From the NCBI RefSeq assembly GCF_045037415.1, contig NZ_CP173438.1: a stretch of DNA of 64,000 nucleotides. One strand, written 5' to 3'. Numbering within the stretch: position 1 is the first letter of the stretch; every line of letters begins with the position of its first letter. Made by a program: the position numbers and the translations under genes. Source of the stretch: Escherichia coli (lineage in GTDB: Bacteria > Pseudomonadota > Gammaproteobacteria > Enterobacterales > Enterobacteriaceae). Below are positions 27,157-36,109 of the stretch, piece after piece. A model generated the notes under the pieces. The model had not been told where the DNA came from. It did not search any database and was given only the letters and a program-made list of their open reading frames with translations.

Positions 27157-27927
27157 TTAATGATCGAGGACGATCAGTGGTGAATGGTTGGCAGGATCTT
27201 TAAGTACGGTAATATCCGCGCCGTAGAGCATTGTCAGCGCCTGCTGTGTCAATACGTCCTGCGGCTTACCATTTGCGATAACCTTTCCTTTTTGCATTAA
27301 TACAACACGGTCTGCATAACGCGCGGCAAGATTTAGATCGTGCAATACGCAGCAAACATTGAACTGCCGTTCGTGAACTAACTGGCGTAATAAACGAAAC
27401 AAGTGCTGCTGATGGTGAATATCCAGCGCCGAAGTTGGTTCATCAAGAAATAACCATTTCGGTGAGGGAGTAGGTTCCCAGAGTTGCACCAGCAGGCGCG
27501 CTAATTGCACGCGCTGTTGTTCACCACCGGATAATTGCCGATAGTCGCGGTTTGCTAACGCCTGACAGTCACATAACGCCATTATTTGTGCTGTTTCATT
27601 ATCCTGATTACCAGTACGATGCGGATGCCGCCCCATCTGGATAACTTCTTGTACGCTGAATGGAAACGCCATGTGGCTATTTTGACGCATCACGGCCCGG
27701 TGTTTCGCCAGTTCAGTAATCGACCATTCATTTAATGGCTTATTAAACAACCGACATTCGCCGCTATCAGGTTGAAGATAGCCGGTTAGCTGGCGAAGCA
27801 GCGTAGATTTTCCCGCACCATTAGGGCCGAGGATGGCAACAATTTCCCCACCGGGAAAAGTCAGCGAGACATTATCAGTCAGACGCCGCCCCTGAAGGCT
27901 ATAAACCAGATTCTGGGCGCTGATCAT
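27157..27927 (-). CDS. chuV: haemin ABC transporter ATP-binding protein
   Basis: ORF 27157..28080 trimmed to [13 protein letters not shown] start (256 aa); Walker [10 protein letters not shown] and LSGGEQQR signature; ATGA overlap with chuU stop. Confidence 0.9.
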
Positions 27928-28916
27928 GTGATCCTCCGGTTGCGCAGAATCAACCACATAAAATAAGGGCCACCAAGCAGGCTGGTTAATAATCCCACGG
28001 GCATTTCTGCTGGCTGTACCAGCGTGCGGGCAAGCGTGTCTGCCATCAGCAATAAACAGGCTCCGGCGAGGGCGGAACAAGGGATTAGCCAGCGGTGATT
28101 TGCCCCGGTAGTCATGCGAATCAGATGCGGGATCACCAGGCCAATAAAGCCGATAATACCGCTTACCGATACGGCAGCACCAACGAGCAGTGAGCTCACT
28201 AACAGTAATTGCTGGCGTTTACGCTTAACGTTCACGCCGAGGTAGTGGGCTTCTTCATCACCGAGCTGCAGTAAATTCAGCGTTCCGGCGAGACAAGTTG
28301 TTGCGATAATGGCCGGTAGGATGAATGAACTGGCAACCAATAACGTCGGCCATTGCGCCTGTCCAAGATTGCCCATCATCCACAATGTGAGTTGTCGTAG
28401 CTGCTGCTCATCGCCGATATAGCTCAGGATGCCGATCGCTGCGCCGCACAGGGCATTGATGGCGATACCGGCGAGTAATAATTGCATCATGCTGCCATCG
28501 CGATGGCGCTGCGTGATGAGAAAAATGATGGTGCAGACCACTAAACTTCCGGCAATGGCAAACACCATTTGCTCATAGAGCACCAGCACCACTGGGAAGG
28601 AGAAGGGCAGCACAATAGCAACGCCAACCATTAATGCAGAACCGCTACTGACGCCAAGTAATCCAGGGTCAGCCATTGGGTTGCGAAAAAGCCCTTGCAT
28701 AATTACCCCTGCGGTTGCCAACGCTGCACCTACCAGCACCGCCAGCAAAACCCGTGGTAGACGAATATTGAGCCAGATATCGCGGTATTCCTCATCAAAA
28801 AGGGCATCAAAACTGATCTTTAACGCTCCCTGACTGGCACCAAACAGCACCAGAGCTAGCAATAATAGTGATAGCCCCATAAAGACCCTGGCGGAAGAGA
28901 GTGAATCCTTGAGCAC
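27924..28916 (-). CDS. chuU: haemin ABC transporter permease (FecCD family)
   Basis: 330 aa polytopic membrane ORF directly upstream of chuV. Confidence 0.9.
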
Positions 28917-28964
28917 GCAAAACTCCGTTACGACATTACGGCGCGGACATGCCGCGCCGGGGGA

Positions 28965-33049: not shown

Positions 33050-35032
33050 ATGTCACGTCCGCAATTTACTTCGTTGCGTTTGAGTTTGTTGGCTTTGGCT
33101 GTTTCTGCCACCTTGCCAACGTTTGCTTTTGCTACTGAAACCATGACCGTTACGGCAACGGGGAATGCACGTAGTTCCTTCGAAGCGCCTATGATGGTCA
33201 GCGTTATCGACACTTCCGCTCCTGAAAATCAAACTGCTACTTCAGCCACTGATTTGCTGCGTCATGTTCCTGGAATTACTCTTGATGGTACCGGACGAAC
33301 CAACGGTCAGGATGTAAATATGCGTGGCTATGATCATCGCGGCGTGCTGGTTCTTGTCGATGGTGTTCGCCAGGGAACGGATACCGGACACCTGAATGGC
33401 ACTTTTCTCGATCCGGCGCTGATCAAGCGTGTTGAGATTGTTCGCGGACCTTCAGCATTACTGTATGGCAGTGGCGCGCTGGGTGGAGTGATCTCCTACG
33501 ATACGGTCGATGCAAAAGATTTATTGCAGGAAGGACAAAGCAGTGGTTTTCGTGTCTTTGGTACTGGCGGCACGGGGGACCATAGCCTGGGATTAGGCGC
33601 GAGCGCGTTTGGGCGAACTGAAAATCTGGATGGTATTGTGGCCTGGTCCAGTCGCGATCGGGGTGATTTACGCCAGAGCAATGGTGAAACCGCGCCGAAT
33701 GACGAATCCATTAATAACATGCTGGCGAAAGGGACCTGGCAAATTGATTCAGCCCAGTCTCTGAGCGGTTTAGTGCGTTACTACAACAACGACGCGCGTG
33801 AACCAAAAAATCCGCAGACTGTTGAAGCTTCTGATAGCAGCAACCCGATGGTCGATCGTTCAACAATTCAACGCGATGCGCAGCTTTCTTATAAACTCGC
33901 CCCGCAGGGTAACGACTGGTTAAATGCAGATGCAAAAATATACTGGTCGGAAGTCCGTATTAATGCGCAAAACACGGGGAGTTCAGGCGAGTATCGTGAA
34001 CAGATAACAAAAGGAGCAAGGCTGGAGAACCGTTCCACTCTATTTGCCGACAGTTTCGCTTCTCACTTACTGACATATGGCGGTGAGTATTATCGTCAGG
34101 AACAACATCCGGGTGGCGCGACGACGGGCTTCCCGCAAGCAAAAATCGATTTTAGCTCTGGCTGGCTACAAGATGAGATCACCTTACGCGATCTGCCGAT
34201 TACCCTGCTTGGCGGAACCCGCTATGACAGTTATCGCGGTAGCAGCGACGGCTACAAAGATGTTGATGCCGACAAATGGTCATCTCGTGCGGGGATGACT
34301 ATCAACCCGACCAACTGGCTGATGTTATTTGGCTCATATGCTCAGGCATTCCGCGCCCCGACGATGGGCGAAATGTATAATGATTCTAAACACTTCTCGA
34401 TTGGTCGCTTCTATACCAACTATTGGGTGCCAAACCCGAACTTACGTCCGGAAACTAACGAAACTCAGGAGTACGGTTTTGGGCTACGTTTTGATGACCT
34501 GATGTTGTCCAATGATGCTCTGGAATTTAAAGCCAGCTACTTTGATACCAAAGCGAAAGATTATATCTCCACGACCGTCGATTTCGCGGCGGCGACAACT
34601 ATGTCGTATAACGTCCCGAACGCCAAAATCTGGGGCTGGGATGTGATGACGAAATATACCACTGATCTGTTTAGCCTTGATGTGGCCTATAACCGTACCC
34701 GCGGCAAAGACACCGATACCGGGGAATATATCTCCAGCATTAACCCGGATACCGTTACCAGTACCCTGAATATTCCGATCGCTCACAGTGGCTTCTCTGT
34801 TGGTTGGGTCGGTACGTTTGCCGATCGCTCAACACATATCAGCAGCAGCTACAGCAAACAACCTGGCTATGGTGTGAATGATTTCTACGTCAGTTATCAA
34901 GGACAACAGGCGCTCAAAGGCATGACCACTACTCTGGTATTGGGCAACGCCTTCGATAAAGAGTACTGGTCGCCGCAAGGCATCCCACAGGATGGTCGTA
35001 ACGGAAAAATTTTCGTGAGTTATCAATGGTAA
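33050..35032 (+). CDS. chuA: TonB-dependent outer membrane haem/haemoglobin receptor
   Basis: 660 aa ORF; signal peptide, TonB-box region, C-terminal terminal-Trp beta-barrel signature (FVSYQW). Confidence 0.95.
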   Translation: MSRPQFTSLRLSLLALAVSATLPTFAFATETMTVTATGNARSSFEAPMMVSVIDTSAPENQTATSATDLLRHVPGITLDGTGRTNGQDVNMRGYDHRGVLVLVDGVRQGTDTGHLNGTFLDPALIKRVEIVRGPSALLYGSGALGGVISYDTVDAKDLLQEGQSSGFRVFGTGGTGDHSLGLGASAFGRTENLDGIVAWSSRDRGDLRQSNGETAPNDESINNMLAKGTWQIDSAQSLSGLVRYYNNDAREPKNPQTVEASDSSNPMVDRSTIQRDAQLSYKLAPQGNDWLNADAKIYWSEVRINAQNTGSSGEYREQITKGARLENRSTLFADSFASHLLTYGGEYYRQEQHPGGATTGFPQAKIDFSSGWLQDEITLRDLPITLLGGTRYDSYRGSSDGYKDVDADKWSSRAGMTINPTNWLMLFGSYAQAFRAPTMGEMYNDSKHFSIGRFYTNYWVPNPNLRPETNETQEYGFGLRFDDLMLSNDALEFKASYFDTKAKDYISTTVDFAAATTMSYNVPNAKIWGWDVMTKYTTDLFSLDVAYNRTRGKDTDTGEYISSINPDTVTSTLNIPIAHSGFSVGWVGTFADRSTHISSSYSKQPGYGVNDFYVSYQGQQALKGMTTTLVLGNAFDKEYWSPQGIPQDGRNGKIFVSYQW

Positions 35033-35080
35033 TCATCTGCCCCGATATTTCGGGGCATTTATCTGGAAGGAAGAGAGACA

Positions 35081-36109
35081 ATGAACCACTACACACGCTG
35101 GCTTGAGTTAAAAGAACAAAATCCCGGAAAGTACGCGCGTGACATCGCAGGTTTAATGAATATCAGCGAAGCAGAACTGGCATTTGCGCGCGTCACGCAC
35201 GACGCGTGGCGGATGCGCGGCGATATTCGTGAAATTCTGGCGGCGCTCGAAAGTGTTGGCGAAACCAAATGTATTTGCCGTAATGAATATGCAGTCCATG
35301 AGCAAGTTGGTGCGTTCACAAACCAGCATTTGAACGGACATGCCGGATTGATCCTCAATCCGCGCGCGCTGGATTTACGTCTGTTTCTCAATCAATGGGC
35401 CAGTGTTTTCCACATCAAAGAAAACACGGCCCGTGGCGAACGCCAGAGTATTCAGTTCTTTGATCATCAGGGCGATGCATTACTAAAAGTTTATGCCACC
35501 GACAATACCGATATGGCGGCATGGAGTGAGCTTCTGGCACGGTTTATCACCGATGAGAATACGCCGCTTGAGTTAAAAGCCGTTGATGCGCCAGTTGTTC
35601 AAACGCGAGCCGATGCCAGTGTGGTCGAGCAAGAGTGGCGGGCGATGACCGACGTTCATCAGTTTTTTACGTTGCTCAAGCGTCACAATCTGACGCGCCA
35701 ACAGGCGTTCAATCTGGTGGCAGACGATTTGGCCTGCAAAGTATCCAACAGTGCGTTGGCGCAAATTCTTGAATCTGCACAGCAGGATGGCAATGAAATC
35801 ATGGTGTTTGTTGGCAACCGTGGCTGCGTACAGATTTTCACCGGTGTGGTAGAAAAAGTGGTGCCAATGAAAGGTTGGCTGAATATTTTCAACCCGACGT
35901 TTACTCTTCATCTATTAGAAGAGAGCATTGCTGAAGCCTGGGTTACCCGTAAACCGACCAGCGATGGTCACGTAACCAGTCTGGAATTGTTTGCCCATGA
36001 TGGTACGCAGATAGCGCAACTTTATGGTCAACGTACAGAAGGTGAACAGGAGCAAGCGCAATGGCGTAAGCAAATTGCTTCGTTGATACCGGAAGGCGTT
36101 ACTGCATAA
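35081..36109 (+). CDS. chuS: haem oxygenase / haemin-degrading protein
   Basis: 342 aa ORF immediately downstream of chuA; matches remembered ChuS/ShuS. Confidence 0.9.
   Translation: MNHYTRWLELKEQNPGKYARDIAGLMNISEAELAFARVTHDAWRMRGDIREILAALESVGETKCICRNEYAVHEQVGAFTNQHLNGHAGLILNPRALDLRLFLNQWASVFHIKENTARGERQSIQFFDHQGDALLKVYATDNTDMAAWSELLARFITDENTPLELKAVDAPVVQTRADASVVEQEWRAMTDVHQFFTLLKRHNLTRQQAFNLVADDLACKVSNSALAQILESAQQDGNEIMVFVGNRGCVQIFTGVVEKVVPMKGWLNIFNPTFTLHLLEESIAEAWVTRKPTSDGHVTSLELFAHDGTQIAQLYGQRTEGEQEQAQWRKQIASLIPEGVTA

What the first reader, a model, noticed from the sequence alone, without database searches (positions are those of the whole stretch)
27157..36109. chu haem-uptake/utilisation locus inserted inside the acid fitness island between yhiD and dctR
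Eight genes (chuVUYXWT on the minus strand, chuAS on the plus strand) lie between yhiD and dctR, which are adjacent in K-12. This matches the known chu/shu island of pathogenic E. coli and Shigella and marks the source as a non-K-12, chu-positive strain. Sharp hairpins at the yhiD side (27126..27150) and a short gap at the dctR side delimit the insertion.
Basis: partly seen in the sequence, partly recalled or inferred. Interest (0 to 1): 0.5.

Follow-up and report, generated by a model that had tools for sequence, protein, structure and literature searches.

The report
Known chu haem-uptake locus in E. coli
This is the well-known eight-gene chu haem-uptake and haem-breakdown locus that about 41% of sequenced E. 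coli carry between yhiD and dctR inside the acid fitness island; it is intact here, and ordinary.

Summary
Window 27157..36109 holds intact chuV-U-Y-X-W-T (minus strand) and chuA-S (plus strand). The whole 64-kb window is identical to E. coli NR2550.

In K-12 MG1655 and REL606, yhiD and dctR are adjacent, 41 bp apart. Homology with K-12 ends at 27110 and resumes at 36165, so 9054 bp here replace a 35-bp spacer. There is no target duplication, terminal repeat, tRNA or mobility gene.

Among 5426 complete E. coli genomes, about 2235 carry this same pair of junctions and 3179 carry the K-12 empty junction.

The hairpin at 27125..27151 is real. It looks like a yhiD terminator and lies inside the chu-specific DNA. 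It is not an insertion end.

The known regulatory parts are present: two Fur boxes, a ~291-nt chuA leader and the Rfam shuA/chuA FourU thermometer.

Published work already places this locus inside the acid fitness island (Wyckoff 1998; xenoGI; O157 genome comparisons).

One small addition: both states are old. Divergent Escherichia lineages carry either the occupied site with the same breakpoints or an empty site with a homologous spacer. Whether insertion or loss came first is not settled.

The parts
26458..27105 (+). yhiD (MgtC/SapB family), the left flank, shared with K-12
   Evidence: RefSeq annotation of the identical strain. NCBIfam NF007431 scores 398 bits against a cut-off of 214. 98.1% nt identity to K-12.
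27111..36164 (.). chu-specific segment of 9054 bp, absent from K-12 and REL606, where a 35-bp spacer takes its place
   Evidence: Junction sequences. In chu-negative genomes, megablast matches stop at query positions equal to window 27110 and restart at 36165.
27125..27151 (+). Hairpin (11-bp stem, 5-nt loop) followed by TGGTTTTAAT. Terminator-like for yhiD, between the convergent yhiD and chuV.
   Evidence: Terminator scan. Fold z = -4.4 (+) and -5.5 (-). The stem is conserved, with a loop change, in divergent Escherichia loci L005 and L006.
27157..27927 (-). chuV, ATPase of the haem ABC transporter
   Evidence: NCBIfam NF010068 scores 395 bits against a cut-off of 261. RefSeq annotation.
27924..28916 (-). 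chuU, permease of the haem ABC transporter
   Evidence: RefSeq names it ShuU/ChuU at 100% identity. It is a BtuC/FecCD-type permease by NCBIfam, below the equivalog cut-offs of other families.
28965..29588 (-). chuY, anaerobilin reductase
   Evidence: PDB 5GUY and 5FFQ (ChuY / ShuY-like), E = 1e-134, full length. RefSeq annotation.
29588..30082 (-). chuX (HutX family), cytosolic haem carrier
   Evidence: NCBIfam TIGR04108 scores 209.8 bits against a cut-off of 110.
30095..31432 (-). chuW, radical SAM methyltransferase for anaerobic haem degradation
   Evidence: NCBIfam TIGR04107 scores 569.7 bits against a cut-off of 400.
31452..32366 (-). chuT, periplasmic haem-binding protein
   Evidence: PDB 2R7A (bacterial/periplasmic haem-binding protein), E = 5.7e-162. 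RefSeq annotation. The mechanical ORF extends to 32444 from a TTG start.
32390..32408 (.). Fur-box-like site in the chuT promoter region
   Evidence: 3 mismatches to GATAATGATAATCATTATC. The window holds 4 matches (two sites, each counted on both strands) against 0.02 expected.
32741..32759 (.). Fur-box-like site overlapping the chuA promoter. A -35/-10-like pair lies at 32721..32749.
   Evidence: 2-3 mismatches to the Fur consensus. Promoter scan. The position fits the published 291-nt chuA 5'UTR (PMC9002310).
32760..33049 (+). Long chuA 5' untranslated leader. The start is inferred from the published leader length.
   Evidence: A 291-nt UTR with sRNA, Hfq and Rho regulation is reported for EHEC. 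This position is an inference, not mapped in this strain.
33021..33052 (+). shuA/chuA FourU RNA thermometer covering the ribosome-binding site
   Evidence: Rfam RF02597 scores 60.1 bits against a gathering score of 58. Shown experimentally in PMC3660397.
33050..35032 (+). chuA, TonB-dependent outer-membrane haem/haemoglobin receptor
   Evidence: NCBIfam TIGR01785 scores 588 bits against a cut-off of 317. RefSeq annotation.
35081..36109 (+). chuS, haem-degrading / haem-binding protein
   Evidence: PDB 4CDP and 1U9T, E = 3e-229, full length. RefSeq names it 'hematinate-forming heme oxygenase ChuS'.
36122..36149 (+). Hairpin downstream of chuS, terminator-like, inside the chu-specific DNA
   Evidence: Fold of -20.4 kcal/mol, z = -3.4 on the + strand and not significant on the - strand. 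Conserved, with stem changes, in L004-L006.
36166..36696 (-). dctR (yhiF), the right flank, shared with K-12. Homology resumes at its stop codon.
   Evidence: RefSeq annotation. 97.4% nt identity to K-12.

Best explanation
This is the chromosomal chu (= shu) haem-uptake and utilisation locus of Escherichia, intact and at its usual site between yhiD and dctR in the acid fitness island.

How it works (from the family assignments here plus established knowledge of these proteins):
- ChuA, a TonB-dependent outer-membrane receptor, takes haem from host proteins.
- ChuT carries haem across the periplasm.
- ChuU and ChuV import it.
- In the cytoplasm ChuS handles or degrades haem aerobically.
- ChuX, ChuW and ChuY carry it and open the ring anaerobically: radical SAM methyl transfer gives anaerobilin, which is then reduced.

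The two divergent operons, chuAS and chuTWXYUV, are repressed by Fur at the two boxes in the 683-bp intergenic region. chuA translation is also gated by the FourU thermometer in its ~291-nt leader.

Relative to K-12, 9054 bp replace a 35-bp spacer, with no sign of a site-specific or transpositional mechanism. This strain did not acquire the locus recently. The occupied site is an old allele shared with about 41% of E. coli and with divergent Escherichia lineages. The empty site is an old allele too.
For: - Identity: the window is identical to E. coli NR2550, whose RefSeq annotation names all eight genes. Family and structure matches are above curated cut-offs or near-identical to solved ChuS, ChuY and haem-binding (ShuT-type) structures.
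- Regulation: Fur boxes and the Rfam FourU thermometer.
- K-12 and REL606 adjacency and exact breakpoints.
- Counts among 5426 genomes: 2234 carry the full locus, 2235 the left junction, 2232 the right junction and 3179 the empty junction.
- No terminal repeats above chance.
- The 35-bp spacer has no match in the island above chance.
- Age of the occupied site: the same junctions occur in divergent Escherichia loci L005 and L006. Their chu genes are 88.6-96.4% identical in nucleotides and their flanking genes 85-95%.
- Age of the empty site: a divergent chu-negative Escherichia (L088) has a homologous spacer, with 0 of 2000 shuffles scoring as well.
- Literature.
Against: - Nothing contradicts the identification.
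- Function in this strain is inferred from sequence only.
- The transcription start and leader are placed from published EHEC data, not measured here.
- The claim that both alleles are old rests on a handful of non-coli Escherichia loci whose species I could not name. Recombination between lineages could mimic antiquity.
Confidence: 0.95

Rival explanations
1. The K-12-type empty site is a secondary deletion. On this view chu was present in the ancestor of E. coli and was lost once in the lineage leading to the chu-negative groups, so 'insertion' has the direction wrong.
For: - The full locus with identical breakpoints is present in two divergent Escherichia lineages, with divergence like that of the flanks.
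- xenoGI reports it in E. albertii and notes that the distribution would need an insertion followed by a clean deletion.
- From general knowledge, chuA-positive phylogroups B2, D and F branch early.
Against: - The 35-bp spacer of the empty site contains no island-derived sequence.
- That spacer is itself conserved in a divergent chu-negative Escherichia lineage, so it is not a recent deletion scar.
- E. fergusonii has an acid fitness island with dctR next to yhiD and no chu.
Confidence: 0.3
2. The locus is a recently acquired mobile pathogenicity island in this strain, and the hairpins are its recombination ends.
For: - GC content is about 50-55% inside the locus against 33-46% in the adjacent acid-fitness genes.
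- There are sharp boundaries relative to K-12.
Against: - There is no integrase, transposase, tRNA, target duplication or terminal repeat.
- The same junctions occur in about 2235 genomes and in divergent Escherichia lineages.
- The hairpin has a T tail and sits between convergent genes, as a terminator would.
- It is the flanks whose GC is atypical, not chu.
Confidence: 0.02

Closest known systems
chu locus of E. coli O157:H7 and UPEC, and the shu locus of Shigella dysenteriae (Wyckoff et al. 1998, Torres & Payne 1997, both cited from memory; described inside the acid fitness island by xenoGI and in PMC9144400)
   Same: - The same eight genes, order and strands.
- The same site between yhiD and dctR/yhiF.
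- Fur boxes, a long chuA leader and the FourU thermometer.
- 96.2% nucleotide identity to O157:H7 over the 14-kb region.
   Different: Nothing of substance, only allelic variation. This allele is 99-100% identical to a subset of human, animal and environmental isolates and about 96% identical to O157:H7.
hemPRSTUV / hmuRSTUV-type haem operons of Yersinia and other Enterobacteriaceae (found here in Citrobacter, Enterobacter, Kluyvera, Leclercia, Buttiauxella and others)
   Same: - The receptor and HemS/ChuS proteins are 65-88% identical to ChuA and ChuS.
- Both use a binding protein plus an ABC importer.
- The last ~70 nt before the receptor gene are homologous.
   Different: - One colinear operon with a small hemP gene upstream, instead of two divergent operons.
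- The binding protein is only about 32% identical to ChuT, the permease about 60% and the ATPase about 50%.
- No chuW, chuX or chuY within 10 kb.
- Not located in an acid fitness island.
Vibrio cholerae hutWXZ (from memory, not tested here beyond the family models)
   Same: ChuW and ChuX fall in the HutW and HutX equivalog families.
   Different: ChuY is not a HutZ homologue. The genomic context differs.

Membership tests
chu/shu haem-uptake and utilisation locus of E. coli and Shigella | TonB-dependent haem receptor ChuA/ShuA | tested here: met
   TIGR01785 scores 588 bits against a cut-off of 317. RefSeq names it at 100% identity.
chu/shu haem-uptake and utilisation locus of E. coli and Shigella | ChuS/ShuS directly downstream of the receptor gene | tested here: met
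   PDB 4CDP and 1U9T, E = 3e-229, residues 1-342. The gene lies 48 bp after chuA.
chu/shu haem-uptake and utilisation locus of E. coli and Shigella | Divergent operon chuT-W-X-Y-U-V encoding a binding protein, radical SAM ChuW, HutX-type carrier, ChuY reductase, permease and ATPase | tested here: met
   All six ORFs are intact and full length.
chu/shu haem-uptake and utilisation locus of E. coli and Shigella | Fur-regulated divergent promoters | tested here: met
   Two Fur-box-like sites at 32390..32408 and 32741..32759. The window holds 4 matches (two sites, both strands) against 0.02 expected. Binding itself was not tested.
chu/shu haem-uptake and utilisation locus of E. coli and Shigella | FourU RNA thermometer in the chuA/shuA leader | tested here: met
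   Rfam RF02597 scores 60.1 bits against a gathering score of 58, at 33021..33052.
chu/shu haem-uptake and utilisation locus of E. coli and Shigella | Chromosomal site between yhiD and dctR (yhiF), which are adjacent in K-12 | tested here: met
   Junction counts.
chu/shu haem-uptake and utilisation locus of E. coli and Shigella | Confers use of haem or haemoglobin as an iron source | not testable with these tools
   Needs a growth assay.
Mobile genomic or pathogenicity island (integrase- or tRNA-associated) | Integrase or transposase, tRNA target, flanking direct repeats | tested here: not met
   All eight genes are chu genes. No end repeats above chance. No target duplication at the junctions.

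The most novel reading that the evidence does not exclude
The occupied (chu) and empty states of the yhiD-dctR site may be a long-lived, possibly trans-species, presence/absence polymorphism in Escherichia. It could be kept by selection or by repeated exchange through homologous recombination in the flanks. That would differ from a single gain or a single loss. Separately, the locus itself may be a mosaic: chuAS vertically related to the hemRS genes of other Enterobacteriaceae, joined to a chuTWXYUV operon of different ancestry.
Probability: 0.3. Interest if true: 0.3.

Novelty: already known. Interest (0 to 1): 0.08.

Why it matters
The practical value is strain typing. It marks the source as a chuA-positive E. 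coli and not a K-12-like strain; in the Clermont scheme, from general knowledge, that means not phylogroup A, B1 or C. The locus is a well-studied iron-acquisition and virulence-associated system.

The only open question it touches is evolutionary: how a clean presence/absence dimorphism at one site has been maintained across E. coli and related Escherichia lineages. That puzzle has already been noted in the literature.

Tried and rejected
- **Terminal repeats.** I looked for direct or inverted repeats and target duplications at the two breakpoints. Nothing exceeded chance.
- **K-12 spacer inside the island.** I searched for the 35-bp spacer within the chu segment, as a deletion scar would predict. 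The best score was 12, against a shuffle mean of 11.7 and maximum of 15.
- **E. fergusonii spacer.** I tried to align its 73-nt dctR-yhiD spacer with the K-12 spacer and with the island ends. It is not alignable.
- **L088 spacer against the chuS-terminator region.** The similarity is weak (19 of 27 positions; 92 of 2000 shuffles as good). K-12's spacer does not show it, so I treated it as chance.
- **hemP or a conserved upstream ORF in the chuA leader.** Other Enterobacteriaceae have hemP there. The Escherichia leader has none, and its small ORFs are not conserved between L004, L005, L006 and the window.
- **NCBIfam gaps.** No family was listed at E <= 1e-10 for ChuY or DctR. ChuS had only a below-cut-off HutX match, and ChuT and ChuU matched only other families below their cut-offs. 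ChuS, ChuY and ChuT were settled by near-identical solved structures and ChuU by the RefSeq name at 100% identity.
- **Wyckoff et al. 1998.** The paper is not held in the library. It is cited from memory and through xenoGI's summary.
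Full report
**1. What is there**

A megablast of window 25000..39000 against 5426 complete E. coli genomes found 100% matches, including strain NR2550. The whole 64-kb window is identical, with no mismatch, to NR2550 NZ_AP040168.1 4502579-4566578 on the reverse strand.

The RefSeq annotation of that genome gives, in window coordinates:
- yhiD 26458..27105 (+)
- haem ABC ATPase (chuV) 27157..27927 (-)
- shuU/chuU 27924..28916 (-)
- chuY 28965..29588 (-)
- hutX/chuX 29588..30082 (-)
- hutW/chuW 30095..31432 (-)
- chuT 31452..32366 (-)
- chuA 33050..35032 (+)
- chuS 35081..36109 (+)
- dctR 36166..36696 (-)

Independent checks agree.
- NCBIfam places ChuV, ChuX, ChuW and ChuA above the curated cut-offs of the haem-specific families.
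- ChuS is near-identical to PDB 4CDP and 1U9T.
- ChuY is near-identical to 5GUY and 5FFQ.
- ChuT is near-identical to the periplasmic haem-binding protein 2R7A.
- All eight reading frames are intact and full length.

**2. Comparison with K-12**

In MG1655 and REL606, dctR and yhiD are adjacent and convergent, 41 bp apart.

Reading the junctions directly, homology with K-12 runs through the yhiD stop codon plus TCTGT, up to window 27110. It resumes at TTCACACC (36165), where TCA is the dctR stop codon on the other strand. Between these points the window has 9054 bp. K-12 has the 35-nt GTGGCAGCGTAGCCAGACTCACCGTAAGCCTGAAA.

That spacer has no match in the island above chance. The island ends carry no direct or inverted repeats above chance. 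There is no integrase, transposase or tRNA. So the difference is a replacement with no recognisable mechanism.

**3. How common it is**

Counts among 5426 complete genomes:

| State | Genomes |
|---|---|
| At least 80% of the 14-kb query | 2234 |
| Left chu junction | 2235 |
| Right chu junction | 2232 |
| K-12 empty junction | 3179 |

In chu-negative genomes the junction queries stop matching exactly at window 27110 and 36165. E. coli therefore has essentially two alleles at this site, and about 41% of genomes are occupied.

**4. The hairpins**

Its fold is far more stable than shuffles on both strands.

It lies 15 nt inside the chu-specific DNA, between the convergent yhiD and chuV. It therefore reads as an intrinsic terminator, mainly for yhiD, and not as an insertion boundary. 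Its stem is conserved in divergent Escherichia.

The 56-nt gap on the dctR side also holds a hairpin, at 36122..36149 downstream of chuS. The K-12 spacer has no comparably stable structure.

**5. Regulation**

Two Fur-box-like sites lie in the chuT-chuA intergenic region, at 32390..32408 and 32741..32759. The window has four matches (each site counts on both strands) against 0.02 expected.

The second site overlaps a -35/-10-like pair. It sits where a 291-nt leader would begin, as published for EHEC chuA (PMC9002310).

Rfam finds the shuA/chuA FourU thermometer at 33021..33052, above its gathering score. Its function is shown experimentally in PMC3660397.

Everything expected of the known locus is present.

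**6. What is already known**

- The xenoGI paper (bioRxiv 10.1101/188599, also PMC5799925) states explicitly that the eight-gene haem transport locus of Wyckoff et al. [quoted passage not shown] It calls the distribution puzzling.
- PMC9144400 describes the ~22-kb acid fitness island with chu genes in EDL933-like strains, against ~13 kb in MG1655.

The finding is a correct recognition of a textbook locus.

**7. Direction of the event**

This is the only open point. A ChuS scan of one genome per species returned three Escherichia loci.

- L005 and L006 carry the full locus with the same breakpoints. Their chu genes are 88.6-96.4% identical in nucleotides to the window and their flanking genes 85-95%. 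So chu has diverged in step with its surroundings.
- L004 (Escherichia sp. MOD1-EC7003) has only chuAS. It carries an ERIC half-copy at the left junction and a full ERIC in the chuA leader.

Through DctR homologues I retrieved two chu-negative islands.

- E. fergusonii ATCC 35469 has slp-dctR-yhiD-hdeBA-hdeD at another chromosomal site.
- A divergent Escherichia (CP056642.1, L088) has them at the syntenic site. Its flanks are 85-87% identical to E. coli. Its 42-nt spacer aligns with K-12's 41-nt intergenic region (27 identities; 0 of 2000 shuffles as good).

Hence the empty site is not a fresh deletion scar, and the occupied site is not a recent gain. Both alleles are old or have moved between lineages by recombination. 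Within E. coli the flanks do not sort by allele (K-12 against the window, 97-99% identity). I cannot say which event came first. I lean to insertion, at roughly 55:35.

**8. Relatives outside Escherichia**

The other 77 loci come from Citrobacter, Enterobacter, Kluyvera, Leclercia, Buttiauxella and others. They have a colinear hemP-hemR-S-T-U-V operon.
- The receptor and HemS proteins are 65-88% identical to ChuA and ChuS.
- The binding protein is only about 32% identical to ChuT, the permease about 60% and the ATPase about 50%.
- No chuW, chuX or chuY lies within 10 kb.

The Escherichia locus therefore looks like a mosaic of two ancestries. This is an inference from identity levels, not a phylogeny.

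**9. Verdict**

The locus is already known, so interest is low.

Noticed in passing
window 38601..39290: arsR and most of arsB are missing relative to K-12. Window 39087/39090 joins K-12 positions 3650176 and 3648489. This leaves an orphan arsC (38601..39026) next to the AgrB sRNA (39201..39285).
   Followed up: partly
window 37596..37990: Only a frameshifted remnant of yhiS remains (annotated pseudogene at about 37605..37984). K-12 3651669-3653781, which includes IS5, has no counterpart here.
   Followed up: partly
L004 5880..6410 (Escherichia sp. MOD1-EC7003): A variant of the site with only chuAS between yhiD and dctR. chuVUYXWT are absent. A half ERIC element sits at the left junction (5893..5970) and a full ERIC inside the chuA leader (about 6290..6403). 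It is probably a deletion derivative of the full locus.
   Followed up: partly
L007-L083 (other Enterobacteriaceae) compared with window 27157..36109: The locus looks like a mosaic. ChuA and ChuS are 65-88% identical to the receptor and HemS of colinear hemP-R-S-T-U-V operons. ChuT is only about 32% identical, ChuU about 60% and ChuV about 50%. chuWXY are absent there. Only the last ~70 nt of the chuA leader, including the FourU element, are shared.
   Followed up: partly
window 35038..35057: A terminator-like hairpin (8-bp stem, 6 GC pairs, then TTTATCTGGA) lies in the 48-bp gap between chuA and chuS, although chuAS is described as bicistronic. It could attenuate chuS expression.
   Followed up: no
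L088 10532..10573, L003 (K-12) dctR-yhiD spacer: The spacer of the empty site is conserved between K-12-type E. coli and a divergent chu-negative Escherichia lineage (27 identities; 0 of 2000 shuffles as good). The E. fergusonii spacer (L084 8565..8637) is not alignable.
   Followed up: yes
window 57665..63265: A sugar-utilisation cluster lies between yhhJ and nikR: a GntR regulator, PTS IIA/IIB/IIC, an FGGY kinase, an HPr-like protein and a class II aldolase. It is probably another strain-variable segment. It was not compared with K-12.
   Followed up: no
window 22000..41000: GC content is 33-46% in the acid-fitness genes flanking chu (hdeD-yhiD and dctR-yhiS) and 50-55% inside the chu genes. 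The compositionally atypical DNA is the surrounding island, not chu.
   Followed up: no
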